This document shows, piece by piece, positions 44,844-59,667 of a stretch of DNA of 64,000 nt. Source of the DNA: Candidatus Aenigmatarchaeota archaeon (lineage in GTDB: Archaea > Aenigmatarchaeota > Aenigmatarchaeia > CG10238-14); the NCBI GenBank assembly GCA_026414305.1, contig JAOAJH010000005.1:1612-65611 (forward strand), in the 5' to 3' direction. A program made the position numbers and the translations under genes. Numbering within the stretch: the stretch's first letter is position 1; each line of letters opens with the position of its first letter. The notes beneath the pieces were generated by a model. It was given only the letters and a program-made list of their open reading frames with translations, was not told the origin of the DNA and did no database searches.

Positions 44844-45143
44844 TTATTTCTTGAATTTTTGTCTTTTGAAAATTTTTTCCCTGTTTATTATGATTAATGG
44901 GATTGATGTTAGCAGGATTATCAGTAATGACACATTCAGTATGTTTATCTTCATCTTGAAAAGGAAATTGAAATAGAAAACAACCAAAGGAACAAGGGCT
45001 ATTGATAAACCAAATGACAATGCTACCCTCTCCAAAGCATCTATTTCATTTTTCTTGAAAAACACATATGACCATGCAAAGCCTGGCAAGAACAAAACAA
45101 AAATGCTACCAAAAATTATTCTCGCTATTTCTATTATTTCCAT
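44844..45143 (-). CDS. Small hypothetical membrane protein (99 aa, 3 TM)
   Basis: Hydrophobic segments. Convergent with the ligase-like gene. Confidence 0.3.
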   Translation of the reverse strand: MEIIEIARIIFGSIFVLFLPGFAWSYVFFKKNEIDALERVALSFGLSIALVPLVVFYFNFLFKMKINILNVSLLIILLTSIPLIIINREKIFKRQKFKK

Positions 45144-45185
45144 GAATTAAAATATTCCAGAAAGTTTTTAAATGTTTGCGAAAAA

Positions 45186-48089
45186 TCAGCACACATATTC
45201 CATGACTCGGTGAAAATCATCTTCATATGCAGATGCAAAGCAGCTGTTGTTAAATTTTTCCATGTTTTGTATGTTGTTTCTTTGCTTTGCTATGAAAACA
45301 TACAATGGTTTTTCATAAACATCCAAAAGAGGTTTTATCTCGTCAAAGCTGGATGCTGACCAGTATTTTTGCCACTGATCAAAATACCATTTATTGTGCT
45401 CAAATATGCCAGGTGCTATTGCTTTTCTGTCTGAATAGCCTAAAATCCATGGAGAATAATAGCTTGATGGAATAATTATATAGCTGTCTTTCTTTGTTGA
45501 TGCCGAAGCAGTTTTTATTGAATTTATTTCATTTTCATTCAGCAAAGGATTTAATGATGATGCATAACTGAAAGCAAGCCATGCGGATGACAAAATCAAT
45601 ATAATAATTATAAACAATTTCAAGTGATATTGCTTTATTGACAAGATGCTGTGGTAAATGCCTGCTGCGGCCAATATTGTTATTGCGAGATCAAAGTTTG
45701 TGAGAAAGCGGTTGAAGAAAAACAATTCTGCGAATATTATTATGCCTGAAACAAACGCCCATATAAACAGCAGGTTAATTTTCTTCTGCTTAATCATATA
45801 GTGAAAGGCAAATGGCAAATATGCTAGCGAAACGATCCTGAAATATGTTGGAGAGAAAAATGTTCCGCCCGCTGTTGGCGAGGAAATGTTTTTTATCAAT
45901 GATGAAAATGTGTCAATTATTATCATGTTGAATCTCGGCAAGTAAATAATCGTCAATAGAAATGATGTTGTTATCATGCTTTTCAGATAAAATCTTTTTG
46001 TTGCAATGCTGTTTACAATCCACACTATTGCTAAAATGAGAAAGGTCGGTCTGTGATAAAATCCTGTTGCTGTCGCAAAAATAACAGCAAGAAATTGGTT
46101 TTTGTCTATGAAAACAAAAAACAAAAGCATTGTTGTTATTGCTATGATGTTTTTGTAATACATGTAGCTGAATGTTGCCAGCTGTGTGTATGACAATGAG
46201 AATATGATGCATGCTATGGCTGCTATTGTTGGGTTGAAATGTTTTTTTGCAAGCATGTATATTGGGAATATTGAAAGAGATGAGAAAAGGATTAAAAGTG
46301 GGATTAAAAGATGTTCGGTTGAAAAGCCGAAAATGTATAGCAAGTCAGCAAGCACAAACAACCCTTGCTCGTGTGATGACCTTATCCATTTTTCAAGCTG
46401 TTGTTCTGGAATGTCAGGAAGGCTTGCCATGTATTTTTCAAAGACATATTTGTATATGCCTGTGTCATATCCTAGCGGTATGTGGTTGCTAATATAAGGA
46501 ATTGATCTTAATGCTATTGCTATGAAAAATGAGATTGCAACTAGCGCGTAAACATGACCTTTGGATAAATTGAATTTGGATTTTTCATTGAATAATATCA
46601 ATCCTGCTGCAACAGCGGGGATGAAGATTAGCGCAAATATGTTTTGAAATATTTTTGGTGAAAGTATTGATGCTAGCAAAACTGCTGCTGCGTAAAGCAA
46701 CAAAACAATCTTTGCAGCAATTTGTAAATTGATTTTTGGAGGTTTTGGGATGTTAAAAATTTTCAGCCATATCAAAACGCCAAAGTATGCTGTTAAAGCT
46801 ATTCCATATTTTACAGGCAGCAACAGCAAATCTACTTTGATGATCAATGATAATGAAAGCATAAGTGCTGAAGCGACTAAAAATTTAAAGAAAAGATTAA
46901 GACTGAATATTTTGTAAAGCTTTCTTGTTGATGCAAAGCTTGCGGCAAAACCGAACAATGCTGAAAGTAGTGTTGCAAAAGCTGCACCTTTTATGTCATA
47001 TATTGGTATTAGCAAGTGATTCAGCAACACAGACAAAAGTATGATTGCTATTCCTATCAGTGCTGTTGTCTTTTGCTTGTAAACAGCGTTCAGTATTGTG
47101 TTGAAAAATGCGAACAATGTGAAGATGCTGTAAGCCAATATCAATATTGCCAAAGGCTGCGATGCCTGCTGGTAGGAAGATGGATAAAACACTTTCACTA
47201 TTGATGATGCGTCTGCAAATATTGCTATTGTTATCGGTATCAGAATGATCATCAGATATTTAAGAGATTTTTTTATGTGGGTTTCGCTCTGCTTGTCGTT
47301 TGAAGAAACCAAAGGAAAGATGACTGTGCTAAAGCCTGCTAGCAGAAAAGTTGGTATTTTTGCTATGTTCAAAGCCGCTGTGTAATATCCTGCTTTTGCT
47401 GGATCCTGAGTTATTCTTTGAAGCAACAGCAAATCAACTGACTGGAAAAGAGTTATAAGCAAGCTGTAAATTGTTATTGGTATTGCATATTCAATTATTC
47501 TTTTCATTGGAGTGTTGCCTTTGTTTGAGATTGATCTGGAAGCTATGGCTATGCCAGCTAAAGCTGCAATGGCATATCCTATTATAGCGCCTTTCAAGGA
47601 AAAGAAAAAGGCTAGGGCAAAAACAGATGCTATTTTTGCTATTGAGTATGCGATTGAGGCAAAAGATTGCTGCTTGAAAAGCTTTCTTCCGTTCAAATGG
47701 GATGTTGTTACTGCGTAAACAGCATACAAAGGAAAGACTAGGGCAGATATTGGTATGTATGCCTTCAGTTGATCGTTTTTAAGGAATGATGATATCTGGC
47801 TTGACAAGGCTATGTATAATGCTGAAATTATTATTGAGATGGAAAGCTGGAATAGAATTATCTTTTTTATTGCTATCTGCTTTTCTGAGGTGAATTTTGA
47901 TGTCGCAGCGGCTATGCCTGATGTCAGCAGAATGTTGATGGTTGACTGGAAAGCGAGTATTATGCCCAGCATACCATAAAGGCTTGGGTCAAGCATTCTT
48001 GCCAAGCCAAAGTGGATGACATAGCCTGAAAGAATGAAGACTATTTGGGCTATTGTTATGTAAGCAGTGTTTTTTATGAGATCGTTCAT
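45186..48089 (-). CDS. 967-aa fusion of an N-terminal MOP/Wzx-like oligosaccharide flippase domain (about 12 TM) and a C-terminal polytopic membrane domain (polymerase- or GT-C-like)
   Basis: The N-terminal ~480 aa has Wzx-like topology and composition. A second block of about 10 TM helices plus a soluble C-terminus follows. Confidence 0.55.
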   Translation of the reverse strand: MNDLIKNTAYITIAQIVFILSGYVIHFGLARMLDPSLYGMLGIILAFQSTINILLTSGIAAATSKFTSEKQIAIKKIILFQLSISIIISALYIALSSQISSFLKNDQLKAYIPISALVFPLYAVYAVTTSHLNGRKLFKQQSFASIAYSIAKIASVFALAFFFSLKGAIIGYAIAALAGIAIASRSISNKGNTPMKRIIEYAIPITIYSLLITLFQSVDLLLLQRITQDPAKAGYYTAALNIAKIPTFLLAGFSTVIFPLVSSNDKQSETHIKKSLKYLMIILIPITIAIFADASSIVKVFYPSSYQQASQPLAILILAYSIFTLFAFFNTILNAVYKQKTTALIGIAIILLSVLLNHLLIPIYDIKGAAFATLLSALFGFAASFASTRKLYKIFSLNLFFKFLVASALMLSLSLIIKVDLLLLPVKYGIALTAYFGVLIWLKIFNIPKPPKINLQIAAKIVLLLYAAAVLLASILSPKIFQNIFALIFIPAVAAGLILFNEKSKFNLSKGHVYALVAISFFIAIALRSIPYISNHIPLGYDTGIYKYVFEKYMASLPDIPEQQLEKWIRSSHEQGLFVLADLLYIFGFSTEHLLIPLLILFSSLSIFPIYMLAKKHFNPTIAAIACIIFSLSYTQLATFSYMYYKNIIAITTMLLFFVFIDKNQFLAVIFATATGFYHRPTFLILAIVWIVNSIATKRFYLKSMITTSFLLTIIYLPRFNMIIIDTFSSLIKNISSPTAGGTFFSPTYFRIVSLAYLPFAFHYMIKQKKINLLFIWAFVSGIIIFAELFFFNRFLTNFDLAITILAAAGIYHSILSIKQYHLKLFIIIILILSSAWLAFSYASSLNPLLNENEINSIKTASASTKKDSYIIIPSSYYSPWILGYSDRKAIAPGIFEHNKWYFDQWQKYWSASSFDEIKPLLDVYEKPLYVFIAKQRNNIQNMEKFNNSCFASAYEDDFHRVMEYVC

Positions 48090-48177
48090 TTTACCCTGAA
48101 ATTTAGTATTTGAGAATAGATTTAAAAGAGTGATTGGGTTTGCTTATATGGAATTGGTTTAAAAGTGTTTGTGTTAA

Positions 48178-48639
48178 TTGTTTTTCATGAAAGCTTTGGA
48201 TTTGGGAACAGGTGACGGAAGATATCTGCTTGAGCTGGCTAGGCTAGGATACTATGCAATAGGTGTTGACAAGAGAAGCTGGCCTGTTGATGATGATGTG
48301 GCTAGATCAATCAGCGATGGTAGGATAAAAATAGAGGTTGCCGATGCACTTGATTATTTGAGGTCTTGTACTGATAGATTTGACCTTGTCAGCGTTAGAT
48401 ATCCGGACGAGCTTGGATATTACATTTATTTTACCAGTCTGACAGACTCTTTTGAATTTTTGAATCAGGTTTACAGGGTTTTGAAAAATGATGGGATCTT
48501 CCTAGTTGTTTCCAGGCAAGATGATTATCCTTATGATGATGTTGTAAAGGCTGTTGAATGGACTGGACTTTTCAGGAAGGATGAATTGAAGGTTGATGAA
48601 TTGAGAAATTATGAGTTAAGATTTAAAAAATGCGTTTAG
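48178..48639 (+). CDS. Class I SAM-dependent methyltransferase (small)
   Basis: Motif I ALDLGTGDGRYLLELARLGYYAIGVDK. Confidence 0.6.
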   Translation: MFFMKALDLGTGDGRYLLELARLGYYAIGVDKRSWPVDDDVARSISDGRIKIEVADALDYLRSCTDRFDLVSVRYPDELGYYIYFTSLTDSFEFLNQVYRVLKNDGIFLVVSRQDDYPYDDVVKAVEWTGLFRKDELKVDELRNYELRFKKCV

Positions 48640-48687
48640 GAAGGATGGTTTCTATAGATATTGCAAGGTTGTATTGGGTTTACTTTT

Positions 48688-49010
48688 TGCTCAAATATCG
48701 GGAAAAAGCGTATATAGATAATTTGTGCGATATCGAGTAGAAAGCGAATATATGTGTGATTTGCTCAAATAGCGGGAAAATACGTATATGCGTAATTTGC
48801 TCAAAATCAAGCAATAATGCGATAGGATATTCGTTTTTTGCTCAAATAGCGGGAAAATGTGCATATAGATAATTCGATTAAAATCTGAGTAAAAGGCGTA
48901 TATACAGAATTTGCTCAGAATTGAATAGAAAGCGTATATTCGTGATTTGCTCAAATAGCGGGAAAAAGCGTATATATATAATTTCCTCAATTTACGCAAA
49001 AACCCGAATA
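48688..49010. repeat. Array of about 9 degenerate ~37-bp tandem repeats (consensus ATTTGCTCAAATAGCGGGAAAAAGCGTATATAGATA)
   Basis: Four well-conserved copies (48688, 48763, 48839, 48946) alternate with degenerate copies. The region is GC-richer than its surroundings and intergenic. The 156-aa minus-strand ORF 48691-49161 lies over it and is probably spurious. Confidence 0.6.
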
Positions 49011-49057
49011 GCAGATTTATAATCAGTTTAAAAACCTTTTTACCAATAATTTTTTTA

Positions 49058-50080
49058 ATGGCATACAAGTACAAGCCTAAAACGCAAACAAACAAAGCTG
49101 TTTTAATTGGTATTGCTATCACTGCTTTTGTTATTGGATTGCTGCTTTTGCTTCCTGGCAAAGATGAAAGGCCTCTGGAAGTAAGGTTGCAAGAGTATTT
49201 GATGAAAAAAGTTCCTAGGAATGCTACTGTTGCTGTTGAAGGTGTTGATCCTGCTGTACTTGATAAAATTGAAAGGCCGATTGTTTGGCTTGCTAATTAT
49301 ACACCTTCGAAAGAACCGATTGATTTGAATGTCACTATAAGAGGCAGCCATAAATTATGGGTATATTTGGCTGATGGTGAAGATTTGGAATTGAATTTGT
49401 CAAAACAGGACTTGAATTGGTATAATGGAACTGATGTTTTGAGGATTGAAGTTTACAATCCGGATTTGAAGTTGGTTTATAATTATAGCATTGAGGATGA
49501 TGGTATTGATGTTGTTGAAAAGCAGTTTGATCCAAAGATGCTTGGAAAAGAGCAGTTTCATAGGGTTTTTGTAAAGAATAAAGGGCAAGGGGCATATAAA
49601 ATATTGTTGATTTCTCAAGCTAAAGGAGATGATTTTTATATTCATTTAAAGTCGACAATGCAGAATAAGATGGTATTTCAGGATAAAATTTATATTTATC
49701 TCTATGATAATTTTTGGTTTAATTGTTTAAAATATAATTGTAATCTAAATTTTATGACTTATCATAATAGTAGTTTACAAAATTTTAATATAATATGTAC
49801 AAAAAACAATTATACAATAAGTTTAAATCAAACTAACAAAATTTTCAATTTTACCACAAAAAATGATGAAAATAATTGTAAATTTTCTAAAATTGAAAAC
49901 CACAAATCATCAGAAAAACAAAAAACAAGTTTAATTTTTAGTTCAAATAAAATTTCTTTTTTTATATATCAAAATTCATTTTTCTATCCATATTCTATAG
50001 TTAACAAAAATTCTGATTATTTGGTTATTTTTAAAGAAAATAAAATTTTTCAGGTGAAAAATATTGAAAAAAAATATTGA
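49058..50080 (+). CDS. Membrane-anchored protein whose ORF runs across a compositional junction; the C-terminal third is a low-complexity Asn/Lys/Ile tail
   Basis: Residues 1-210 have normal composition (signal/TM, beta-rich). From about nt 49685 the DNA becomes extremely AT-rich and the translation is low-complexity. The real gene probably ended or was truncated near 49685. Confidence 0.4.
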   Translation: MAYKYKPKTQTNKAVLIGIAITAFVIGLLLLLPGKDERPLEVRLQEYLMKKVPRNATVAVEGVDPAVLDKIERPIVWLANYTPSKEPIDLNVTIRGSHKLWVYLADGEDLELNLSKQDLNWYNGTDVLRIEVYNPDLKLVYNYSIEDDGIDVVEKQFDPKMLGKEQFHRVFVKNKGQGAYKILLISQAKGDDFYIHLKSTMQNKMVFQDKIYIYLYDNFWFNCLKYNCNLNFMTYHNSSLQNFNIICTKNNYTISLNQTNKIFNFTTKNDENNCKFSKIENHKSSEKQKTSLIFSSNKISFFIYQNSFFYPYSIVNKNSDYLVIFKENKIFQVKNIEKKY

Positions 50081-51683
50081 ATTTAAAAATGCGGAAAAAA
50101 TTTTTTTATTCATACTTATAATGACAATATCTATATATATTTATTTAATTAATCCTTATAAAAATACAAAATTATTTTTTACACCGGATGAATATTCATT
50201 CTTTTTTTATTCTCAAAAAATATTAAAAAATAATTTCTTTTTGAATGAAAATATTTTAAACAATAAGTATTCAACAACCGCTTTTTCTCCATATTTTTCT
50301 TCATACTCAGACAAAGGCGATTTGTTAAAAGACCATTTTGGTTATGTTATATTCCTTTCATTATTATCATTGTTTATAAAAATAACAAATATACCGGTTA
50401 TTATTACAATATTTAATTTATTTTGTTTTTTTTTAATATCTGTTTCATTTTTGAAGAAAAGTATTTCATTTGTCTCCTTATTAATATTTTCATTATTCCC
50501 AGTATTTTTACATTTTTATCCACTATTATTTTCTGACAACTTAGGTTTGATTTTTTTCTGTCTATGGTTCTACAGCACTAGAAAAATTGAATATTCTAAT
50601 TGGAAAATAATGTCCATAATTTTTTCTTCTTTCCTAACATTAATAAGATATGTAAATGTCATTTTTTTAATTTTTACTATTTTAATTTTAATTTACAAAA
50701 AAAACATTAGAATATTATTGACTATATTTCCATTAATTATTATTTTTATGTTATTTCCAATCATATTAATTAATATTATATACTATGGAAACCCTTTTGT
50801 TTACCCACAATTTGAAAATTCAAAAAGTGTACTAGATATTAACAAATATCCATATAAAAAATATGATATTCAAAGCAATATAAACAAATCCTCTTTTTTA
50901 TCTTATATAAAAGAGTATTTTGACATAAATTCAATATTATTATCATTTAAATATCTAATTTTTTTTAGCCCTCTAGCTCCATTGTCTATAATAGGTATTT
51001 TTTTATTAATAAAAGAGTTATTTATCTTTGGAGATAAAATAACAATATCTATAATGATTCTTCTACTCATTTACATGATTTTTATGTTTAGTATAAAAGA
51101 CATATTTAGAGTTAGTAATGTACCTTCACTACATGACTCTTTATCAAGATACTTAATTCCTGTATTTTCATTTATTATAATCTTGATATCAAAATCATTA
51201 TATTATAAAAAAAATAGTCAATATTTAGTATCGATTTTGATTTTTTTAATAATAACAATATCGATTTTAAATTTATACAATGTAACTATTGAGGATCCGC
51301 TCAATTATATTGTAATAAAAGAAAAAATCATGTACTACCAGAAAATACATGATAAAGTAATTTCTAATACGGAAAATAATTCGATAATTATAACATCTGT
51401 ATGGGAAAAAATAATATATCCAGAAAGAAATGTACTAGTTTATATAAGAATACCAGAAGAAATAAGACTTGATGAAATAAACAGAATTGTCAAAGAGTTA
51501 AAAAATGATTCTTATGATGTATATATTTTAGTTACTAATACTGAACTTAAATATTATAAAGATACTTCTGACAAAAAAATAAAATTTTATGATGTAATTA
51601 ATAATTTAAATGATAAATTCAAAACAGAAATGATTTTATCAGATAATGATTTAGATTTAATAAAAATTGGTGAACTAAAATGA
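50064..51683 (+). CDS. Polytopic GT-C-like membrane glycosyltransferase (ArnT/PMT-like)
   Basis: 539 aa, more than 12 TM. Loop-1 TPDEYSFFF has a DE motif as in ArnT/PMT families. Very low GC. Confidence 0.45.
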   Translation: MKKNIEFKNAEKIFLFILIMTISIYIYLINPYKNTKLFFTPDEYSFFFYSQKILKNNFFLNENILNNKYSTTAFSPYFSSYSDKGDLLKDHFGYVIFLSLLSLFIKITNIPVIITIFNLFCFFLISVSFLKKSISFVSLLIFSLFPVFLHFYPLLFSDNLGLIFFCLWFYSTRKIEYSNWKIMSIIFSSFLTLIRYVNVIFLIFTILILIYKKNIRILLTIFPLIIIFMLFPIILINIIYYGNPFVYPQFENSKSVLDINKYPYKKYDIQSNINKSSFLSYIKEYFDINSILLSFKYLIFFSPLAPLSIIGIFLLIKELFIFGDKITISIMILLLIYMIFMFSIKDIFRVSNVPSLHDSLSRYLIPVFSFIIILISKSLYYKKNSQYLVSILIFLIITISILNLYNVTIEDPLNYIVIKEKIMYYQKIHDKVISNTENNSIIITSVWEKIIYPERNVLVYIRIPEEIRLDEINRIVKELKNDSYDVYILVTNTELKYYKDTSDKKIKFYDVINNLNDKFKTEMILSDNDLDLIKIGELK

Positions 51684-52864
51684 TAATATTAGATTGTGTA
51701 CCTGCAGGTGTCATACCACCAAAGGGGGGTGGGACAAAAAGAATACATAATATAAATTTGTTTCTATCAAAATACTATAAAATATTAATGTTTTCTCACG
51801 GTATTAGAAAGTTTGAATTTAAACTTCCATTGAATTCATGGGTAAAAAAAATAAATTATAATTACTATGAAGTAAGATATATTGATCCATATTTTATAAT
51901 TTCATCTTATCTTTTAAATAAACTTTATAATATTGGTCCGATATTTTCAAGTAACTTTTTATTTATAAACAACCCAAATTTTGTAAAAAATCTAATTAAT
52001 AGTTCTGATATAATAAAAATTGAACATCCATGGCAGTTTAAATATTTTCATAATATGAATAAGAAAAAGGTTCCAATTATTTTAACCTTACACGATATTG
52101 GAATCGAACTAGCTTTACAGACAATTAAAAATGGTTTTCTGAAAAAAAAATTAATTAAAATAATTAGTACAATGGAAGATTTTGCAATAAAAAATGCCGA
52201 CAAAATAATAGTTGTTTCTGAGGATGACAAAAAAAGGTTGAAAGAAATATATGGAACAGAAAATAAAAAAGTAGTTGTTGTTCCAAACGGTGTAAACACG
52301 AAAGAATTTAAATCAACATCAAATAAAGAAGAAATAAAGAAGAAATATGGTATGGAAAATAAAAAAGTAGTTATTTTTTCTGGATGGAAACACATACCAA
52401 ACCTACATGCTGTGAATCAAATAATAAAAATATCAAAAGATTTAAACGAAAAAAATGTTGTTTTTATAATAATTGGAAGTGTTGGTGAATTTTTTAAAAA
52501 AATCAAATCAAATAATATTATATTTACTGGTTATGTTGATAAAGTAGACGATTATTTTGCTATGGCTGACCTGGCATTAAATCCGATGATTTCTGGTACC
52601 GGTACAAATATAAAGATATTGGAATATTTGTCATATGGAATACCTACCATAACTACTAAAAAAGGGTGTCGGGGTTATAACTTAATTAACCGCAAAGAAG
52701 CATTAATATGTGATTTAAAAGAATTTCCTGAAAAAATATCATACTTACTCAACAACGATATTATGAGAAATAAGCTTTCATTTTATGGAAAAAAATTTGC
52801 AAAAAAATATGATTGGAACAATATAGCTAAAATAGAAAAAAAAATATATGATGATATTATATGA
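51680..52864 (+). CDS. GT4 glycosyltransferase
   Basis: GT-B architecture. C-terminal ALNPMISGTGTNIKILEYLSYGIPTI region. 4-nt overlaps with neighbouring genes. Confidence 0.6.
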   Translation: MIILDCVPAGVIPPKGGGTKRIHNINLFLSKYYKILMFSHGIRKFEFKLPLNSWVKKINYNYYEVRYIDPYFIISSYLLNKLYNIGPIFSSNFLFINNPNFVKNLINSSDIIKIEHPWQFKYFHNMNKKKVPIILTLHDIGIELALQTIKNGFLKKKLIKIISTMEDFAIKNADKIIVVSEDDKKRLKEIYGTENKKVVVVPNGVNTKEFKSTSNKEEIKKKYGMENKKVVIFSGWKHIPNLHAVNQIIKISKDLNEKNVVFIIIGSVGEFFKKIKSNNIIFTGYVDKVDDYFAMADLALNPMISGTGTNIKILEYLSYGIPTITTKKGCRGYNLINRKEALICDLKEFPEKISYLLNNDIMRNKLSFYGKKFAKKYDWNNIAKIEKKIYDDII

Positions 52865-54012
52865 AAAAAATAATTTTAATTTCCTTCGAATATTTTCCAT
52901 ACAAAGATGGTGGCTTGTCTAGATATTCTTACGAACTAACAAGAGAATTTTTTAAACTAAAAAATATAAAGTTTAAATTGATTATAGGGTTTCCAAAAAA
53001 TCATAAAAAACCAAAAGAAAATTATATAATTCCCATTGAAGTTGAATTTTATAATAATAAAATTCTTTCATATTTATTTTTTTCATGGAAAGTTTACTTT
53101 AAACTCATCTTTATGAAAAACAAAGAAAATTTTATTATTCATGCACTCAATCCTTGGAGTTATTTCTTTATTCCAAAAATTAAAAAAGTAAAATTTGTAC
53201 TTACAGAACACAATATAATTTCAAAGCAAATTAATATGGCATATGGATCATCAATACTCGATAAAATTTTAAGATATATTTTTTATATTTTTTTCTCTTT
53301 TTGGGAAAGGCATCTTTGCCAAACAGCTGATAAAATAATAGCTGTAAGTAAATCTACTAAAAATGACTTGATGAGATTTTATAATATACCTAATAAAAAA
53401 ATTGAAGTGATTTATAATGGTATTAATTTTAAAAATTTTTCTCCGGTTAAAATAAGATTCAATAAAAAAAGAAGAAATCTTTTATTTGTTGGTAGAATTG
53501 TCCCAAGAAAAGGTTTAGAATATTTGGTTGAAACTATATTCTTAATTAAAAAAGAAATATCTGATATAAAACTTTATATAGTTGGTAAAGGAGAAAATGA
53601 TTATTTAATTAAATTGAAAAAAATGATAAAAAAAATGAATCTCGAAAAAAATATTAAATTTTTGGGTTTTATTGAAGATAAAAAATTAAATAAAGTTTAT
53701 TCTATGACAGATATTTTTGTTTTTCCAAGTTTAGTTGAAGGTTTTGGATTAGTCCTTTTAGAAGCTATGACTAAAGGTAAACCAATAGTTGCCACTAATA
53801 TAGGTGGTGTCAATGAGGTTATTATCAATGGTAGAGATGGTATTTTAGTAGAGCCAAAAAAACCAAAAAAAATGGCTGAAGCAATTATTAAACTAATAAA
53901 TGACGATAAATTATATAATAAATTTTCTCAAAATGCAATAAAAAGTGTAAAAAACTTTTCATGGAAAAAATCAGCAAAAAAAGTTTATGAAATATATAAT
54001 CATTTAAGTTAA
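52861..54012 (+). CDS. GT4 glycosyltransferase
   Basis: FPSLVEGFGLVLLEAMTKGKPIVATNIGG (E-x7-E motif). Confidence 0.7.
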   Translation: MKKIILISFEYFPYKDGGLSRYSYELTREFFKLKNIKFKLIIGFPKNHKKPKENYIIPIEVEFYNNKILSYLFFSWKVYFKLIFMKNKENFIIHALNPWSYFFIPKIKKVKFVLTEHNIISKQINMAYGSSILDKILRYIFYIFFSFWERHLCQTADKIIAVSKSTKNDLMRFYNIPNKKIEVIYNGINFKNFSPVKIRFNKKRRNLLFVGRIVPRKGLEYLVETIFLIKKEISDIKLYIVGKGENDYLIKLKKMIKKMNLEKNIKFLGFIEDKKLNKVYSMTDIFVFPSLVEGFGLVLLEAMTKGKPIVATNIGGVNEVIINGRDGILVEPKKPKKMAEAIIKLINDDKLYNKFSQNAIKSVKNFSWKKSAKKVYEIYNHLS

Positions 54013-55224
54013 AATAAGATTTATATAATTTTTGGATATTTTTTTCAAGCTAAATTTATTTGAATATATAAAATTATTTGTCTGAATTTTATAAATATTT
54101 CTTTTTGAATTAATTACATTCAAAATGGTTCTATTTAACTTTTCAATATCTTTACTTTTAATTAAAAGACCACTTTTTCCATTGTTTATTATATCAGAAA
54201 CCCCACCAACATCACTAGCAACTATGGGTAAACCAGCAGCCATACCTTCCATAATAACAACGGGCATACCTTCAGTATCACCAGTTTCATCAACTATAGA
54301 AGGAACAACCAGAATATCAGCAAGATTAAAAAATTCCACTTTCTTTCTACCAACAATATAACCAGTAAACAAAACATTTTTCTCTATTCCTAGTTTTTTT
54401 GTGAGATCAATCATTTCACCCATTAAAGGACCGCTACCACAAACAATCAGACCTACGTCCTTTCTTTCCTCTATTATTTTCGGCATTGCTTCAAGTAAAT
54501 ACCTTAATCCTTTCTTTTCAGCAATTCTTCCAACAAAAAGTAATACATGTTCCCAAGTTATATTATGTTTTTTTCTCAATTCTTTCTTACTTTGTTTTAA
54601 TCTAAATTGCTCAACATTTACCCCCATAGGAATTATAGAAATTTTTTTCTCAATCTCGTTATCATAAAAGATTTTCAAAAAGCGGTTTTTTACAAAGGTA
54701 CTAACAAAAGTTATATTATCTGAATTTTTAACACAAAATTCGGCAATTTTTGATTTGAAAGGTAATTTATCAAGACCTGACAATCCAGCAGCATGTTCAG
54801 TCATAATATGTTTAATATTAAACAATTTCTTGCAAACAGCTCCAACAAAACCAGACGGAATAATCCAGTGAGAATGAATAACATCTATTTTTTCTTTTTT
54901 AACTAATTTGATAGCATATATTAATTCAGCCAATACCAAAAAAGGAACTTGTATCTTTGCCAAAAAACTTCTTTTTAAATTACCCATTATGCCTCCTTCA
55001 TAACACAATCTTTGAAGTTTTTCTGGCAAAAAATAGCTAAATCTGTATACTTTCATACCGTCCATTATTTCAAATTTTTTTGCTCCATAATGATGTGGAG
55101 CTAAAACCACAATATCTACATGTTTGTTTAACTCTTTAGAAAGATCATAAACAAAAGCAGGCGTAGAATCATCCTTCCATCTAGGAAAAGTAGTCGTTAA
55201 AACCAAAACTTTTTTTCTTTTCAT
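54004..55224 (-). CDS. GT4 glycosyltransferase
   Basis: VPSIVDETGDTEGMPVVIMEGMAAGLPIVASDVGG. Confidence 0.7.
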   Translation of the reverse strand: MKRKKVLVLTTTFPRWKDDSTPAFVYDLSKELNKHVDIVVLAPHHYGAKKFEIMDGMKVYRFSYFLPEKLQRLCYEGGIMGNLKRSFLAKIQVPFLVLAELIYAIKLVKKEKIDVIHSHWIIPSGFVGAVCKKLFNIKHIMTEHAAGLSGLDKLPFKSKIAEFCVKNSDNITFVSTFVKNRFLKIFYDNEIEKKISIIPMGVNVEQFRLKQSKKELRKKHNITWEHVLLFVGRIAEKKGLRYLLEAMPKIIEERKDVGLIVCGSGPLMGEMIDLTKKLGIEKNVLFTGYIVGRKKVEFFNLADILVVPSIVDETGDTEGMPVVIMEGMAAGLPIVASDVGGVSDIINNGKSGLLIKSKDIEKLNRTILNVINSKRNIYKIQTNNFIYSNKFSLKKISKNYINLILT

Positions 55225-55285
55225 TCATTCTCTAACAAAAAAACCTTTCTTAAACTTTAAATCTCTTTCTATCAGACATTAATTA

Positions 55286-55660
55286 ATGGAAATCCCCCAA
55301 ACAATCAAAGAATCAGTCATCCAATCATTCAATTACTTGCTAATCCTATTCCTGCTATTCTTGCTAATAGAGGAAATATGGCCAAACACTCTAAAAAGAT
55401 ATATAAATCCAGATTATTTCATGATAGCAGTAATAGCAGTGGGCATACCTGCTGTTTTATGGCATGAAGACAAGCCAAAGCCAAAGGAAGAGATAACAAA
55501 AAAGGATTATCTGCTCATAGCATTGCTAAGCATAGCAGGCTTTGGAATTCTGTATTACAAGCTGAAAGCATTCCCATTAGGCATCTTCATCTCAATAATA
55601 GGCGGCATACTCATCTTCCTGCTGAGCTATCTTGTTTTGACAGAAGATGATCAAGATTAA
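55286..55660 (+). CDS. Small hypothetical membrane protein (3 TM)
   Basis: Hydrophobic segments and an acidic C-terminus. Confidence 0.35.
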   Translation: MEIPQTIKESVIQSFNYLLILFLLFLLIEEIWPNTLKRYINPDYFMIAVIAVGIPAVLWHEDKPKPKEEITKKDYLLIALLSIAGFGILYYKLKAFPLGIFISIIGGILIFLLSYLVLTEDDQD

Positions 55661-55699
55661 TACAAATCATTATAAATCACTTTTTCTCAAAATTGTTTT

Positions 55700-56026
55700 A
55701 TGGAAATATTTCTAGTTGAATCATTAAAAGAAAAGCTATCAAAACCTAGATTTAAACCTCACTATCAAACCATAAAATCCTTAATAAGAAAGCTAAAAGA
55801 GCAAGGCAAAAATTCGCTAAAATTCCTTGACATTCAAGATCAATATATTTTAGGTGAAATGAAAGTTAAAGAACCGCCCTACAGGCTTTATGTAATCTTG
55901 AACCAAAAAGTTGACGCATATTATATAGTTGATTGGTCTCACAAAGATGAGCAAGCAAGAACAATAAAAAGTTTAAAGGAAAAACTAAAAGAGGCTATAT
56001 CCATAGGAATAGAAAATATATTCTAA
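55700..56026 (+). CDS. Small hypothetical protein, weak resemblance to RelE/ParE-type toxins
   Basis: PYRLYVILNQKVDAYYIVDWSHKDE loosely resembles the YRiiYrv...vyilrighR region. No obvious antitoxin partner. Confidence 0.25.
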   Translation: MEIFLVESLKEKLSKPRFKPHYQTIKSLIRKLKEQGKNSLKFLDIQDQYILGEMKVKEPPYRLYVILNQKVDAYYIVDWSHKDEQARTIKSLKEKLKEAISIGIENIF

Positions 56027-56316
56027 CATTTATCTAAAAAATCTTCAATTTCTTTGTTTTTAAGCGCTTTTTTCCTTCCTTTTTCTATTTCGTTTATTTC
56101 TGGAAGATATTTCAAAAAAACGAATTTATAGTACATTTTTTTGGCAAGATCGTCTGCCATAGATTCTATAATTTTTTCAGTTTTTAATTCAGCATTCATG
56201 TTTCTGCTCATTTAAATACACCGACCAAACTTGTATATTAAATTATTTGGGTAATCTTTATAAAATATACTACACTTTGAATAAGATATAAAATAAATTA
56301 TATATGTTACAATATA

Positions 56317-57258
56317 CTATTTAGATCTCTTTCTCAGCATATAAATTATCTCTTCCTGCAAATCCCTTTGAGTCCTTAACATGTCAGCAAGCAAGCCAAA
56401 AGTGAAGACTATCACTCCTGTAATGAAAAACATTGCAGAAAGCAAGCCTCTTCCAGTATATCCTGTGAACATGCCAGTAGCAAAGTAATGCTGCAGGACA
56501 GGAATAGCAACCAATGCAGAGAGCAAGAAGAACGCAAAAGATATTGGCAAAAACACTTTCAGAGGATCATAATCTCTCATACTTCTTATCATCGTCAAAC
56601 CAGCCATCCTAGCATACTTGAATATATTTGCTATAAGCCTTGACTTGCCTTCTCTTTTCCTAAACTCAACAGGCACTTGCTCTATGACCAAGCCCTTGTG
56701 CTTTGCCTGTATTAATGTTTCCTGAACATATGTGTACCTGCCAAACAAATTCAATTTCATCACAGCATCGCTGCTAAGCGCTCTAAAACCAGTTTGCGCA
56801 TCTTTTATCGGCAATCCAGACATCAACCGAGTGAAAAAAGTTGCAATCTTGTTGCCTATTTTTTTCTGCAAAGGCATGTGATCAAGCTTGTCAATGTCTC
56901 TCCATCCCAAAACAATGTCTGCATTTCCATCAATTATCGGCTTTACAAGCTTTGCTATTTCTTTTGCATTATACTGACCATCAGCGTCTATGTTCACTAC
57001 AATATCAGCATCCATGTCCAAAGCTTCATTCAATCCTTTTTTGAAAGAAATTCCCAAACCCATGTTTTTTCTGTTTGAAACAATCCTGTCAGCACCTGCC
57101 TTTCTAGCAACCTCAACAGTCTTGTCGCTAGATCCATCATTAATTACAAGAATTTCGACTTTGCTTATGCCTTCAATCTTTCTTGGTATTTCTTTGATTA
57201 CGCTTGCTATTGTCTTCTCTTCGTTATATGCTGGAATCATTACAACTAGCTTTGTCAT
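56317..57258 (-). CDS. GT2 polyprenol-phosphate hexose synthase-like glycosyltransferase with C-terminal TM helices (AglD/AglJ/DPM1-like)
   Basis: MIPAYNEE...VINDGSSDKT...DADGQ...DAQTGFR. Two C-terminal TM segments. Confidence 0.7.
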   Translation of the reverse strand: MTKLVVMIPAYNEEKTIASVIKEIPRKIEGISKVEILVINDGSSDKTVEVARKAGADRIVSNRKNMGLGISFKKGLNEALDMDADIVVNIDADGQYNAKEIAKLVKPIIDGNADIVLGWRDIDKLDHMPLQKKIGNKIATFFTRLMSGLPIKDAQTGFRALSSDAVMKLNLFGRYTYVQETLIQAKHKGLVIEQVPVEFRKREGKSRLIANIFKYARMAGLTMIRSMRDYDPLKVFLPISFAFFLLSALVAIPVLQHYFATGMFTGYTGRGLLSAMFFITGVIVFTFGLLADMLRTQRDLQEEIIYMLRKRSK

Positions 57259-57465: not shown

Positions 57466-58361
57466 GTGGTTGAGCAAACTCTGGCTTTTGTAGCAGGCAT
57501 AATAATAGGAATTTTGGTTTTTGCCTTGGCTTATCGTCTTTTGAGTGTTTCAATAAACCAAGCCTAAAATCAGGCAGCAATACAGAATTTTAACAAGCTT
57601 TACTCGCAAGTTCAGGCAGTGTGCAAACAGGAGACTGGCAGCAAGATGACAGTAAAGCTTCAGATACCTGTGACAATAAGAGCAGTGTATTTCAGTGACG
57701 ATAATGTGAATCCACTGCCGACTGTTGTTGATTTGATATAGACGGACTCACAAAGCAAAGGAAGCTATCTTTGCATGCAATTCAAAAAAGAGCAGGAATT
57801 GAGGTGCGAAAAGGTAAGTTGCAACGGCCAGATGCCTTATATAGGTGCATTAGAAGATTACAATGATTTGCAATTAGCAGTGAGCAAAATTCTAGGGAAA
57901 AGCATAATAAAACATTATTACCTTTCTATTAAAAAAGACCTTAATAGCAATGTTGACATAAAAATTACGACAGCTTCATCCACGACAACGACAACCGTCA
58001 CAACCGTCACAACTACACAAACAACCACGACAAGGACATTAATTACAACGACTCATGCTACAACGACAACATATCAAAAAATAAACTCCAAAGTTTTATT
58101 GATTATTTACAATCCGATAATAGAGTCTCAAAATAGCGAGAAATTAACTAACGTTATGAAATGGAACGATCCTATACATTTAACTGACTTGTTTATTCAA
58201 AGGATCAAAGAGTCAAGCCATGATATTGTCCATTATGATATTGTAGAAACAATAGAAATTGATGAAATACCAGTGAAATTAGATGGTTTCAAATATACCG
58301 ATGAAGAATATATCAATTGTGCGACAAATAACGCTAATTGCCACTTTCCAGATGGCGTAGA
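57466..58361 (+). pseudogene. Decayed Thr-rich surface-protein gene: hydrophobic N-terminus, two in-frame stops (TAA 57565, TAG 57739), poly-Thr linker, 3' region occupied by IS200 tnpA
   Basis: Frame 1 reads VVEQTLAFVAGIIIGILVFALAYRLL..-TAA-..60 codons..-TAG-..MQFKKEQ...TTASSTTTTTVTTVTTTQTTTTRT (track ORF 57775-58572). It lacks the C-terminal Cys modules of its paralog 59668-60939. Confidence 0.35.
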
Positions 58362-58900
58362 CTATATGTCAATGACATCCTCTGCGGACTTTAGTCCGCA
58401 GTTTCCTACTGATTTAGTAAAAACATCTAATTGCAATTGCTGTTCACGAACATATTTCCTAGCAACTTCTATTGTTATCCGACCAATAGTATCCTTGAAA
58501 TTTCCCTTTGACCAAAAACTTCCTCTAGGATATCTTAATCTGAAATTTTGTATTAGTCTGAATAACTCATAAGATGATGCTCCTTTTAGCAATTGAACAG
58601 CTTTAGATTGAGACATGTATGGCGGCAACTGAGCTATGACATGCACATGATCTTCCATCACAGCTAACTCTAATATCTGTATGTGATGTTTTCTGGCTAC
58701 CATATACAAAATATCTTTGCAATATTCTCTCAGTCTTTCTTTTCTAAACATTTTGTATCTATATTTAGTGCACCATTCAAGATGGTGGATATTATTGCCA
58801 ATGCTATGGCTAAAGCTATTGAATTGTTGCTCCATAAAAACACCTCGTAAAGCTTTAAGTAAACAGAACTCCATAGCTAAAGCTAGATATTTATCGATTT
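58340..58900 (-). mobile_element. IS200-type insertion sequence (tnpA only); boundaries approximate
   Basis: Solo tnpA with no tnpB. Partly repeated GGCTAAAGCTA motifs sit at 58804 and 58876 near the tnpA 5' end. The ends were not mapped. Confidence 0.4.
58362..58874 (-). CDS. tnpA: IS200/IS605-family Y1 (HuH) transposase TnpA
   Basis: HLEWCTKYRYKMF matches H.vWcpKYRR. HuH motif EDHVHVIAQLPP. LLKGASSYEL, FWSKGNF...TIG and C-terminal KYVREQQ carrying the catalytic Tyr. The likely true start is the internal Met at 58835. Confidence 0.8.
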   Translation of the reverse strand: MEFCLLKALRGVFMEQQFNSFSHSIGNNIHHLEWCTKYRYKMFRKERLREYCKDILYMVARKHHIQILELAVMEDHVHVIAQLPPYMSQSKAVQLLKGASSYELFRLIQNFRLRYPRGSFWSKGNFKDTIGRITIEVARKYVREQQLQLDVFTKSVGNCGLKSAEDVIDI

Positions 58901-59033
58901 ATGGAGCTCTGCTCCTATTTTTTATTTTTGATTTCATAATAGAAGAAGGCAACCAATTCATCTACGGGCTAAAGCCCACAGATTTCTTGGTTGGATATTA
59001 AAAATTTAATCCTATTTTTTACAATAAAATCTC

Positions 59034-59318
59034 TTAATAGACAAAGCTTGGAAAAATCTTCTGGCTTTTTCCTGCCTCCATAATAGCATAAAACAATTTG
59101 CCTTGAAAGGTCGCAAAGATGCTGCCAAACACTGTTCTTAACAGATTCTGTAAAATTCCGTCATAATAAAGCTGCATTGCCATTAGCATGTATTCTTTCA
59201 AGGCAAAAACATCATCTTCATCATATATTGTCCTTATTATCTCATTCATTTGAAGGCATGGTTGATGCTTAGTCATTTTAATCACGAATTTGAAATTTAA
59301 TTTAAAAATTACAGTCAA
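59034..59318 (-). CDS. Small hypothetical protein (94 aa)
   Basis: ORF with normal composition. No motif recognised. Confidence 0.25.
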   Translation of the reverse strand: MTVIFKLNFKFVIKMTKHQPCLQMNEIIRTIYDEDDVFALKEYMLMAMQLYYDGILQNLLRTVFGSIFATFQGKLFYAIMEAGKSQKIFPSFVY

Positions 59319-59595: not shown

Positions 59596-59667
59596 GGCAT
59601 AAACAAATTTTATACTTTTTATACAACAAAAAATTTAATATTGAAAATCGCTTTATTATAAGATAAA

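What the first reader, a model, noticed from the sequence alone, without database searches (positions are those of the whole stretch)
49685..55260. Very low-GC island carrying a GT-C-like membrane protein and three GT4 glycosyltransferases, with its left junction inside ORF 49058-50080
Composition drops abruptly at about 49685, e.g. tttttttattcatacttataatgacaatatctatatatatttatttaatt, and returns to background just past 55230. Inside are four glycan-assembly genes, 50064-55224, all coupled. The upstream gene is GC-normal for about 210 codons and then continues as Asn/Lys/Ile-rich low-complexity into the island. That suggests the island inserted into, or replaced, the 3' end of that gene. The soluble GT4 enzymes share the extreme AT bias, so it is not just membrane-protein composition.
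Basis: seen in the sequence. Interest (0 to 1): 0.6.

Follow-up and report, generated by a model that had tools for sequence, protein, structure and literature searches.

The report
Low-GC variable core of glycan cluster
A 4.5-kb very AT-rich stretch in this small archaeon's genome is the swappable, sugar-specific middle part of a conserved cell-surface glycan gene cluster, the same mosaic pattern long known from bacterial O-antigen clusters, and it is not a mobile element that broke a gene.

Summary
The GC trough is real, but its coordinates need correcting. GC falls to 15-27% from about 49,670 to about 54,150, against 32.6% for the window. It is the deepest trough in the 64 kb.

The right edge is not 55,230. 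The fourth GT4 gene (54004-55224) lies on the minus strand and converges on the others. Only its last ~50 codons are AT-rich.

Both edges fall inside intact genes. The AT-rich 3' part of ORF 49058-50080 encodes a real second beta-rich domain, homologous to the C-terminal part of other members of a family with about 1,500 representatives.

All genes from 44844 to 57258 form one rearranged copy of a cluster conserved across archaea and bacteria. Its parts are a GT2, GT4s, a PMT_2-type GT-C, a Wzx flippase, the KQDLNWY-motif protein and a DUF1616 protein.

The closest relatives (three metagenome contigs) show the same GC step at the same codon of the same gene. Downstream they carry different genes: a divergent GT-C, a GT2 and an epimerase.

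No integrase, tRNA or flanking repeats were found.

Best reading: this is a low-GC specificity cassette exchanged by recombination within a conserved frame. It is a new member of a known kind, and interest is modest.

The parts
49058..49672 (+). Conserved 5' part of the KQDLNWY-family gene ('ORF340', NCBI tag N3D75_03800): a TM anchor (residues 11-31) plus beta domain 1 (residues 88-214). GC is normal (0.35-0.40).
   Evidence: 69% aa and 74% nt identity to relatives L001/L026/L027. AF2 pLDDT is 80-88 for residues 88-214. GC1/2/3 = 0.47/0.28/0.32.
49673..50080 (+). Variable, low-GC 3' part of the same gene, encoding beta domain 2 (residues ~219-302). This is the left junction of the cassette.
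   Evidence: GC1/2/3 = 0.18/0.19/0.11. 24% identity to the relative. Open for 135 codons, against 0 of 200,000 shuffles. Aligns to family C-termini. AF2 strands span 219-302.
50064..51683 (+). 539-aa polytopic membrane protein: a divergent PMT_2-type (GT-C superfamily) glycosyltransferase candidate with a ~120-aa C-terminal soluble domain. GC 0.197.
   Evidence: No Pfam hit of its own. Its homologs exceed the PMT_2 cut-off of 26.1 bits: L027 MEM517 46 bits, L020 51.7, L014 29.5, P0009 33.7, L018 26.5. P41-D42 in the first loop is invariant. The AF2 model failed, pLDDT 43.
51680..52864 (+). GT4 glycosyltransferase 'GT4a', the least conserved of the three, with no clear counterpart in other copies of the cluster. 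GC 0.246.
   Evidence: Pfam Glyco_trans_1_4 8e-17 and Glyco_transf_4 2e-14. Only 22-31% tblastn matches, and these overlap GT4b-like genes. 27% identical to GT4b.
52861..54012 (+). GT4 glycosyltransferase 'GT4b'. GC 0.220, GC3 0.141.
   Evidence: Pfam Glycos_transf_1 1.8e-49. 41% identical to the L025 gene that lies next to a homolog of the membrane protein.
54004..54156 (-). AT-rich last ~50 codons of GT4c. This is the right junction of the low-GC block.
   Evidence: GC1 drops from 0.43 to 0.10 at codon ~356-361. The tail aligns colinearly with GT4c homologs; K358 and I367 are invariant and the F-S-x-x-K-I-S-x-x-Y end motif is shared.
54157..55224 (-). Body of GT4 glycosyltransferase 'GT4c'. 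It is a conserved frame gene of the cluster, convergent with GT4b. GC 0.29-0.36, GC3 0.20 (intermediate).
   Evidence: Pfam Glycos_transf_1 2.6e-39. 40% identity to the L025 and L020 counterparts, which sit next to a GT2.
55286..55660 (+). Small membrane protein ('sm124'), a conserved cluster member.
   Evidence: tblastn hits of 29-40% identity next to ORF340 homologs in 10 of the 23 genome loci (L002, L008-L011, L015, L017, L020, L021 among them).
56317..57258 (-). GT2 polyprenyl-phosphate glycosyltransferase (AglJ/DPM1-like), a conserved frame gene. GC 0.389.
   Evidence: Pfam Glycos_transf_2 2e-24. NCBIfam AglJ 137 bits, below the 325-bit cut-off. 38-58% identical counterparts in 12 genome loci and 59.6% in relative L026.
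45186..48089 (-). Fusion of a Wzx-type flippase (residues 1-~445) with a second GT-C-like membrane domain (residues ~480-967), a conserved frame gene. GC 0.359.
   Evidence: Pfam Polysacc_synt_3 3e-28. The two halves are separate genes in other loci. The L020 counterpart of the C-terminal half hits PMT_2 at 2.9e-8 and Dpy19.
44844..45143 (-). DUF1616-type small membrane protein, a conserved frame gene.
   Evidence: Pfam DUF1616 1.3e-14. 39-62% identity in 17 genome loci.
48686..48990 (.). Degenerate 36-nt tandem repeat, about 8 copies, in the 418-nt gap upstream of ORF340. It sits at a synteny breakpoint relative to the relatives. It may hold the cassette operon's promoter (inferred).
   Evidence: TRF: period 36, 8.2 copies. 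The unit occurs nowhere else in the window. In L026/L027 the GT2 gene abuts the ORF340 homolog instead. No Rfam match.

Best explanation
WHAT IT IS
- The window is from a Candidatus Aenigmarchaeota (DPANN archaeon) metagenome-assembled genome.
- Genes 44844-57258 are one rearranged copy of a surface-glycan assembly cluster conserved across archaea and bacteria.
- The AT-rich block at about 49,670-54,150 is its variable, sugar-specific core. It comprises the C-terminal domain of the KQDLNWY-family protein, a PMT_2-type GT-C membrane enzyme, two GT4 enzymes, and the last ~50 codons of a third GT4.

HOW IT GOT THERE
- The core was most likely exchanged or replaced by homologous recombination.
- The crossovers lay in the conserved frame: the 5' two-thirds of the KQDLNWY gene on one side, and GT4c on the other.
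- The source would be a lower-GC pool of alleles.
- This is the same mosaic seen in bacterial O-antigen and capsule clusters. It is not a mobile-element insertion, and no gene is broken.

HOW IT LIKELY WORKS (inferred from family knowledge)
1. The GT2 loads a sugar onto a polyprenyl phosphate.
2. The GT4s extend a lipid-linked glycan on the cytoplasmic face.
3. Wzx flips the lipid-linked glycan.
4. The two GT-C enzymes transfer sugars outside the membrane.
5. The membrane-anchored two-domain KQDLNWY protein works with the flippase. Its second domain is matched to the cassette's glycan.

SHOWN VERSUS INFERRED
- Shown: the composition steps, intact genes, the conserved frame, different cassette content in the relatives, and natural fusions with Wzx.
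- Inferred: recombination as the process, the lower-GC donor pool, and all biochemical roles.
For: 1. Step-like composition changes lie inside two intact genes.
2. A synonymous codon shift is present, not only an amino-acid shift: GC3 is 0.155 against 0.296 expected. The block (GC ~0.22) is more AT-rich than the window's intergenic DNA (0.282), so simple neutral drift of native DNA fits poorly.
3. A conserved frame lies on both sides. tblastn of window proteins against 23 genome loci finds the GT2, GT4c-like, GT4b-like, PMT_2 membrane protein, Wzx, ORF340 family, sm124, second GT-C and DUF1616 genes clustered. The organisms include methanogens, DPANN, Dehalococcoidia, Patescibacteria, Gammaproteobacteria and Eisenbacteria.
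4. The closest relatives come from three independent metagenomes (L001, L026, L027). Their GT2 is 59.6% identical and ORF340 residues 1-205 are 69% identical by alignment with P0002 (64-66% by tblastn).
   - They show the same step at the same codon (0.40 to 0.25) and at least 2.9 kb of low-GC DNA.
   - Their downstream genes differ: a convergent PMT_2 protein, a GT2 and a UDP-GlcNAc 2-epimerase-like gene.
5. Similarity is incongruent.
   - The window's membrane protein is closer to that of the unrelated contig L025 (36.7%, score 679) than to that of the close relative (25.9%, score 301).
   - The GT2 C-terminus shows the opposite order: 46.6% to the relative against 40% to L025.
6. About 40 distant family loci show no such step within the gene (N-part and C-part GC differ by at most 0.07). 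The step is therefore not intrinsic to the protein family.
7. The pattern recurs elsewhere.
   - In Ca. Methanoperedens (L011) the same cluster has GT2 at GC 0.51, then a 4.4-kb core of GT4s plus an unknown gene at 0.29-0.34, then Wzx at 0.47.
   - A milder version occurs in L014.
8. The GC step coincides with the predicted boundary between the two beta domains of ORF340. Some family members are natural fusions with Wzx flippases (P0033, P0046).
9. Published analogues exist.
   - Haloferax agl clusters are variable, with within-gene recombination (PMC5867893).
Against: - Only one relative lineage is available, and it is distant (74% nt identity in the conserved part). No recombination event is observed directly, and no donor is identified. 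The best database match to the membrane protein is only 35% identical.
- At strictly four-fold degenerate sites the block (GC4 0.144) is no lower than several native genes: 0.088-0.149 for 36898-37557, 29916-30398, 8009-9763, 10433-12496 and GT4c.
- Against L025, GT4b (41%) and the membrane protein (35%) are about as similar as the non-island GT4c (40%). That is compatible with co-inheritance.
- Other glycan genes in the window show a partial AT shift. Part of the signal could therefore be a general property of such genes in this genome.
- The shared junction could be ancestral rather than a recurrent crossover site.
- The window is a metagenome-assembled contig, and read support across the junctions was not checked.
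Confidence: 0.6

Rival explanations
1. In-situ evolution. The block is native and vertically inherited. Its genes are weakly constrained, fast-evolving or lowly expressed. In an AT-biased, reduced genome they have drifted to extreme AT-richness. The steps mark boundaries of protein constraint (a domain boundary in ORF340, the C-terminal helices of GT4c), not crossovers.
For: - The block's genes are components of the conserved cluster.
- The step coincides with a domain boundary. The AT-rich parts are the least conserved parts of both junction genes.
- GC4 of the block lies within the range of some native genes.
- Other glycan genes in the window are partly AT-shifted.
- The relative shows the same step, which is compatible with an old, inherited state.
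- Identities to L025 are similar for island and non-island genes.
Against: - Gene content and orientation of the block differ between the window and its relative: GT4a and GT4b co-directional against GT2 and epimerase convergent.
- The membrane protein's similarity is incongruent with the frame genes.
- The block is more AT-rich than intergenic DNA.
- About 40 other family loci, and L020, show no comparable drop.
- The change is step-like within about 200 nt rather than graded.
Confidence: 0.25
2. Assembly artefact. The contig is a chimera. The assembler joined a co-occurring, lower-GC relative's version of the cluster into this genome's contig at shared conserved sequences.
For: - The window is a MAG contig.
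- Both junctions lie next to conserved coding sequence, which is where assemblers can switch strains.
- No read data were available.
Against: - Three independently assembled contigs from other metagenomes show the same step at the same codon.
- Both junction genes keep an open, colinear, full-length reading frame.
- Frame genes of a single cluster lie on both sides.
Confidence: 0.06
3. Mobile genomic island. A mobile element carrying glycan genes integrated into, and truncated, ORF 49058-50080.
For: - The boundary is sharp and the composition foreign-looking.
- An IS200-type transposase lies at 58362-58874.
Against: - The gene is not truncated.
- There is no integrase, tRNA or flanking direct or inverted repeat.
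- The transposase is about 4 kb outside the block, beyond normal-GC genes.
- The relative has the same junction.
- No close relatives were found on viral contigs.
Confidence: 0.03
4. Composition artefact of membrane proteins. The trough simply reflects Ile/Phe/Leu/Lys/Asn-rich membrane and glycan proteins.
For: The block's proteins are enriched in K, N, I, F and Y. The DUF2298 membrane proteins are also low-GC.
Against: - Synonymous sites are shifted too.
- The soluble GT4a and GT4b have GC 0.22-0.25.
- Other membrane proteins have normal GC: Wzx fusion 0.359, 61307-62491 0.362, 1664-3778 0.334.
Confidence: 0.02

Closest known systems
Bacterial O-antigen and capsule gene clusters with a low-GC serotype-specific centre (for example Salmonella rfb; PMC3715488)
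   Same: - A conserved frame surrounds a central set of GT, flippase and membrane-enzyme genes of much lower GC than the genome.
- GC and divergence change inside conserved pathway genes next to the specific genes.
- Different gene sets occupy the same locus in relatives.
- No mobile-element hallmarks are present.
   Different: - The host is an archaeon (DPANN) with a 33% GC genome, so the core reaches 15-25% GC.
- The frame genes differ: no galF/gnd or rml genes, and no Wzy was identified.
- Two PMT_2-type GT-C enzymes and a KQDLNWY-family protein are present instead.
- One junction lies at a domain boundary inside a protein whose second domain travels with the cassette.
- Only one relative lineage was compared, and the glycan is unknown.
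Variable N-glycosylation (agl) clusters of Haloferax and other archaea (PMC5867893)
   Same: - These are archaeal surface-glycan clusters.
- An AglJ-like GT2 is comparatively conserved.
- Other GTs vary between related strains.
- Exchange is attributed to homologous recombination, including within-gene events.
   Different: - No AglB oligosaccharyltransferase was seen in the cluster here.
- The GT2 scores well below the AglJ equivalog cut-off (137 against 325 bits).
- The cluster is shared with bacteria, so it is not an agl cluster in the strict sense.
PMT_2 / GT-C superfamily membrane glycosyltransferases (PF13231; the ArnT and protein O-mannosyltransferase type)
   Same: - Homologs of the 539-aa membrane protein pass the PMT_2 cut-off over profile positions ~10-159.
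- The protein is polytopic.
- A conserved Asp lies in the first extracytoplasmic loop (P41-D42).
- It is encoded next to a polyprenyl-phosphate GT2.
   Different: - The window protein itself gives no Pfam hit.
- A profile search against the PDB found nothing.
- hhalign against the window's own PMT_2 protein is weak: E 0.0055, probability 6.6%.
- The structure model failed.
- It carries an extra C-terminal alpha/beta domain.

Membership tests
GT4 glycosyltransferases (GT-B fold; Pfam Glyco_transf_4 plus Glycos_transf_1) | Both the N-terminal GT4 domain and the C-terminal Glycos_transf_1 domain score above Pfam gathering cut-offs | tested here: met
   51680-52864: 54.3 and 52.6 bits. 52861-54012: 71 and 168 bits. 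54004-55224: 61.2 and 134.9 bits. Cut-offs are 28.5 and 26.4 bits.
GT-C superfamily / PMT_2 (PF13231), for ORF 50064-51683 | Direct match of the protein to the family model above the cut-off | tested here: not met
   No PMT_2 hit for the window protein at E <= 1. The only weak NCBIfam hit is to the LA_3751/LA_3752 putative GT family, at 18 bits against a cut-off of 200.
GT-C superfamily / PMT_2 (PF13231), for ORF 50064-51683 | Transitive homology: full-length alignable homologs that match the family above the cut-off | tested here: met
   L027 MEM517 46 bits, L020:5743-7392 51.7, P0009 33.7, L014:5437-7056 29.5, L018:5364-7151 26.5; the cut-off is 26.1. These homologs align with or match the window protein.
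GT-C superfamily / PMT_2 (PF13231), for ORF 50064-51683 | Acidic catalytic residue in the first extracytoplasmic loop after TM1 | tested here: met
   P41-D42 (motif FTPDE) is invariant in the 4-sequence alignment. Its catalytic role is inferred.
GT-C superfamily / PMT_2 (PF13231), for ORF 50064-51683 | GT-C fold | tested here: inconclusive
   AF2 with 3 sequences gave pLDDT 42.8, so no fold search was run. A profile search against PDB sequences gave 0 hits.
Mobile genomic island / integrative element | Integrase or transposase inside or at the edge, a tRNA or other attachment site, and flanking direct repeats | tested here: not met
   No tRNA in the 64 kb. Only AT-rich chance repeats at the edges. 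All four block ORFs are glycan genes. The IS200 transposase lies 4 kb away.
Mobile genomic island / integrative element | The target gene is disrupted, and an empty site exists in relatives | tested here: not met
   The ORF is intact and colinear with its family. The relatives show the same junction, not an empty site.
Variable (serotype-type) glycan cassette within a conserved cluster | Conserved frame genes on both sides, shared with relatives | tested here: met
   Cluster synteny in 23 genome loci. In the relatives the GT2 is 59.6% and ORF340 residues 1-205 are 64-69% identical.
Variable (serotype-type) glycan cassette within a conserved cluster | Different gene content at the same position in related genomes | tested here: met
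   Window: PMT_2-like protein, GT4a and GT4b, co-directional. L027: convergent PMT_2 protein (25.9% identical), GT2 and Epimerase_2. Only one relative lineage was available.
Variable (serotype-type) glycan cassette within a conserved cluster | Atypical (lower) GC and codon usage of the specific genes | tested here: met
   The pattern recurs in L011 and L014.
Variable (serotype-type) glycan cassette within a conserved cluster | Demonstrated exchange: strain-level polymorphism or incongruent phylogeny | tested here: inconclusive
   Pairwise similarity is incongruent. There were too few sequences for trees, and no strain-level data.
AglJ (S-layer N-glycosyltransferase equivalog, TIGR04182), for 56317-57258 | Score above the equivalog cut-off | tested here: not met
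   137.2 bits against a cut-off of 325. The protein is a GT2 of the polyprenyl-phosphate hexose synthase type only in a general sense (Pfam GT2 86.7 bits).

The most novel reading that the evidence does not exclude
The KQDLNWY-family protein has about 1,500 representatives at 50% identity, no Pfam or NCBIfam model, and is sometimes fused to Wzx. It may be a previously unrecognised extracytoplasmic partner of the flippase and GT-C machinery in a glycan system shared by archaea and bacteria. Its second beta domain would be glycan-specific and would be swapped together with the GT-C and GT4 genes. The junction inside the gene would then be a built-in modular switch point for surface-glycan type in DPANN archaea and others.
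Probability: 0.2. Interest if true: 0.55.

Novelty: new member of a known kind. Interest (0 to 1): 0.33.

Why it matters
Surface glycans are what viruses, hosts and partners see first. Episymbiotic DPANN archaea live attached to other cells. A conserved glycan cluster with a swappable low-GC core would therefore be a plausible source of surface variation in them, as O-antigen clusters are in bacteria.

The practical value here is mostly corrective. The block is not a mobile element and no gene is broken. It should be annotated as the specific core of a glycan cluster.

The by-product may be more useful than the trough itself. It consists of a widely conserved inter-domain cluster and an unmodelled family of about 1,500 representatives linked to Wzx.

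Tried and rejected
- Exact look-up of ORF340 in the contig index found nothing. Homology search then identified the source MAG.
- AF2 of the membrane protein with 3 sequences failed (pLDDT 43), so no fold search was run on it.
- A profile of the membrane-protein family against PDB sequences gave 0 hits.
- hhalign of that profile gave weak or no signal: against the window's own PMT_2 protein, E 0.0055 and probability 6.6%; against the C-terminal half of the Wzx fusion, nothing.
- Foldseek of the ORF340 model against the PDB gave only generic beta-sandwich and CBM-like matches (TM on query at most 0.22). No fold assignment was made.
- The search for flanking direct or inverted repeats, and for inverted repeats at the ends of a possible 7.3-kb inversion, found only AT-rich chance matches.
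- No tRNA and no Rfam family in 44-59 kb.
- Viral contig scans with GT4b and the membrane-protein family gave one generic 26% GT4 hit and nothing else. A viral origin was dropped.
- A first codon-usage run used two wrong frames. It was discarded and redone.
- The A8 run in the ORF340/membrane-gene overlap was considered as a phase-variation site. It was set aside because A8 and T8 runs are common in the block.
- GT4a, GT4b and GT4c are old paralogs (27-28% identity), not recent duplicates.

Full report
**1. Source and observation**

The window comes from a Candidatus Aenigmarchaeota MAG. ORF 49058-50080 is identical to NCBI N3D75_03800, on a 73-kb contig. Window GC is 32.6%.

A trough with 200-nt GC of 0.15-0.27 runs from about 49,670 to about 54,150. 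It is the lowest-GC 4.5-kb stretch of the window, at 0.218. It also has the most deviant dinucleotide signature: delta* 196, against a median of 72 and a 95th percentile of 137. Its tetranucleotide correlation with the rest of the window is low (0.34 against a median of 0.52), though the 5-10 kb region is lower still.

Several details of the finding need correction:
- The right edge is ~54,150, not 55,230.
- The fourth GT4 gene (54004-55224) is on the minus strand, convergent, and overlaps the third by 9 nt. Only its last ~50 codons are AT-rich.
- The quoted string lies at ~50,103, not 49,685.

**2. Nature of the bias**

The block's proteins are rich in K, N, I, F and Y. Synonymous sites are shifted as well. 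GC3 is 0.155, against 0.296 expected from the block's own amino acids with the window's codon preferences. AAG makes up 6.6% of Lys codons against 26.7% (p = 6e-11), and Asn, Leu, Ser and Gly shift in the same direction.

The block is more AT-rich than intergenic DNA, which has GC 0.282. Membrane-protein composition is not the cause:
- The soluble GT4a and GT4b have GC 0.22-0.25.
- The neighbouring 967-aa membrane protein has GC 0.36.

There are two caveats. At four-fold degenerate sites the block (0.144) is matched by several native genes. Other glycan genes are partly AT-shifted: the DUF2298 proteins at 5712-7997 and 10433-12496, a carbamoyltransferase, and 36107-38965.

**3. Both junction genes are intact**

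In ORF340 the step lies at codons ~205-211, where GC1 goes from 0.47 to 0.18 and GC3 from 0.32 to 0.11. Three results show that the AT-rich 3' part is real coding sequence:
- It stays open for 135 codons where shuffles average 14 stops; 0 of 200,000 shuffles were open.
- It aligns with the C-terminal part of family members; H236, F309 and P311 are invariant or nearly so.
- In an AF2 model (13 sequences, pLDDT 67.5) it forms a second beta-rich domain (residues 219-302). That domain follows a TM helix (11-31) and a well-predicted first beta domain (88-214).

The GC step therefore coincides with a domain boundary.

The AT-rich tail of GT4c aligns colinearly with the C-terminal helices of homologs. 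The 'insertion into a gene' reading fails on this evidence.

**4. The block sits inside a conserved cluster**

A scan of species-representative genomes with the ORF340 family motif KQDLNWY gave 23 loci. The organisms include methanogens, Methanoperedens, DPANN, Dehalococcoidia, Patescibacteria, Gammaproteobacteria and Eisenbacteria.

tblastn of the window's proteins against these loci shows a recurrent set of neighbours:
- an AglJ/DPM-like GT2 (38-58% identity);
- GT4c-like and GT4b-like GT4s;
- a PMT_2 membrane protein homologous to ORF 50064-51683 (L014, L020, L018);
- a Wzx flippase;
- the ORF340 family protein;
- a small membrane protein (window 55286-55660);
- a second GT-C-like membrane protein, which is the C-terminal half of window 45186-48089;
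- a DUF1616 protein (window 44844-45143).

Window genes 44844-57258 are thus one rearranged copy of this cluster, with frame genes on both sides of the trough. A Logan contig (L025) carries GT2, a methyltransferase, GT4c (40%), GT4b (41%) and the membrane protein (35%) at uniform GC of about 0.29.

**5. The relatives**

The only close relatives found are three contigs from different metagenomes: L001 from ENA, and L026 and L027 from JGI. Between the window and these relatives the GT2 is 59.6% identical. ORF340 residues 1-205 are 69% identical by alignment with P0002 (64-66% by tblastn) and 74% at the nucleotide level.

All three show the same step inside the ORF340 homolog, from GC 0.40 to 0.25 at about codon 200. 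Identity to the window collapses from 69% to 24% at the same point.

Downstream, L027 has at least 2.9 kb of GC 0.20-0.27 with different content:
- a convergent PMT_2 membrane protein, 25.9% identical to the window's;
- a GT2;
- a UDP-GlcNAc 2-epimerase-like gene.

The window's membrane protein is closer to L025's (36.7%, score 679) than to the close relative's (score 301). The GT2 C-terminus shows the opposite order.

In about 40 distant family loci the N-part and C-part GC differ by at most 0.07. The step is therefore lineage-specific, not a property of the protein family.

**6. Recurrence**

In Ca. Methanoperedens (L011) the same cluster has GT2 at GC 0.51, then a 4.4-kb core of GT4s plus an unknown 493-aa protein at 0.29-0.34, then Wzx at 0.47. 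L014 shows a milder version (0.38 falling to 0.26-0.28). L020 shows none.

**7. No mobility signals**

- No tRNA genes were found.
- No meaningful flanking repeats were found.
- No integrase is present. The IS200 transposase lies 4 kb outside the block.
- No close viral relatives were found.

**8. Interpretation**

The best-supported reading (confidence about 0.6) is a variable, specificity-determining core of a conserved glycan cluster. It would be replaced or exchanged by homologous recombination, with crossovers in the conserved 5' part of ORF340 and in GT4c.

This matches the published picture for Salmonella O-antigen clusters. [quoted passage not shown] GC and divergence grade across the rml genes toward the specific genes (PMC3715488). 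It also matches the variable Haloferax agl clusters, which show within-gene recombination (PMC5867893).

The main rival (about 0.25) is in-situ AT drift of weakly constrained native genes. In its favour are the domain-boundary coincidence, the GC4 values and the similar identities to L025. Against it are the different gene content in the relative, the incongruent similarities and the comparison with intergenic DNA.

Assembly chimera (about 0.06), mobile island (about 0.03) and membrane composition (about 0.02) are unlikely.

**9. Function (inferred)**

1. The GT2 makes a polyprenyl-phosphate sugar.
2. The GT4s extend a lipid-linked glycan on the cytoplasmic face.
3. Wzx flips it.
4. The two PMT_2-type GT-C enzymes act outside the membrane.

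The ORF340 family has 1,511 representatives at E <= 1e-3 and no Pfam or NCBIfam model. Some members are natural fusions with Wzx flippases (P0033, P0046). This suggests an extracytoplasmic partner of the flippase. A cassette-matched second domain would explain why the junction sits at its domain boundary.

The 'GT-C-like' label for ORF 50064-51683 rests on three points: homologs that pass the PMT_2 cut-off, the invariant P41-D42, and the genomic context. The protein itself gives no hit, and its structure model failed.

**10. Verdict**

Noticed in passing
window 48686-48990: A degenerate 36-nt tandem repeat of about 8 copies (unit TTTGCTCAAATAGCGGGAAAATGCGTATATACGTAA) fills the 418-nt gap upstream of ORF340. 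It is unique in the window and has no Rfam match. In relatives L026 and L027 the GT2 gene abuts the ORF340 homolog, so the array sits at a synteny breakpoint. It may carry TATA-like promoter elements.
   Followed up: partly
window 44844-57258; loci L002-L024: A gene cluster is conserved across archaea and bacteria: an AglJ/DPM-like GT2, GT4s, a PMT_2 GT-C, Wzx, a KQDLNWY-motif protein, a small membrane protein, a second GT-C and DUF1616. The KQDLNWY family has about 1,500 representatives at 50% identity and no Pfam or NCBIfam model. Some members are fused to Wzx flippases. Methanosarcinales loci L003 and L005 carry four tandem paralogs.
   Followed up: partly
window 45186-48089 (-): This 967-aa protein is a fusion of a Wzx-type flippase with a second GT-C-like membrane domain. 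The two are separate genes in most other loci. The L020 counterpart of the C-terminal half hits PMT_2 and Dpy19.
   Followed up: partly
window 49040-56310 versus L026/L027: Relative to the close relatives (GT2 followed directly by ORF340 on one strand), a single inversion of about 7.3 kb would restore the adjacency. This segment contains the low-GC block plus normal-GC genes. No inverted repeats were found at its ends.
   Followed up: partly
window 5712-12496: A second, shallower low-GC glycan patch holds two DUF2298 membrane proteins (GC 0.24 and 0.26, GC3 0.19-0.24), a carbamoyltransferase and a GT2. This region has the lowest tetranucleotide correlation with the rest of the window (0.22).
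   Followed up: no
window 36107-38965: Three co-directional ORFs (264, 219 and 479 aa) have no Pfam hit and low GC (0.26-0.29, GC3 0.20-0.23). This is another compositionally deviant patch of unknown function.
   Followed up: no
window 57775-60939: An IS200-type Y1 transposase (58362-58874, minus strand) overlaps the 3' end of a Thr-rich ORF (57775-58572). Nearby, a 423-aa protein (59668-60939) has long poly-Thr linkers and three copies of a Cys motif (C..K.F..C......C.WVGD...G.C). It is probably a heavily glycosylated surface protein.
   Followed up: no
window 50067-50074: An A8 run lies in the 17-nt overlap between the ORF340 stop and the start of the membrane-protein gene. A 1-nt length change would fuse the two frames. 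A8 and T8 runs are common in the block (11 of the 32 homopolymer runs counted in the window), so this may mean nothing.
   Followed up: partly
L011 1640-6036 (Ca. Methanoperedens nitroreducens): The same cluster in a distant archaeon has a 4.4-kb low-GC core (0.29-0.34, GC3 0.22-0.28) between GT2 (0.51) and Wzx (0.47). The core includes an unannotated 493-aa protein with no Pfam hit.
   Followed up: partly
L027 3820-4563: The epimerase-like gene at the far end of the relative's cassette matches only positions 90-301 of the 347-position Epimerase_2 profile. An upstream in-frame stop lies within the contig, so the gene may be truncated or frameshifted. Its GC rises toward its 5' end (0.36-0.38), mirroring the GT4c gradient in the window.
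   Followed up: no
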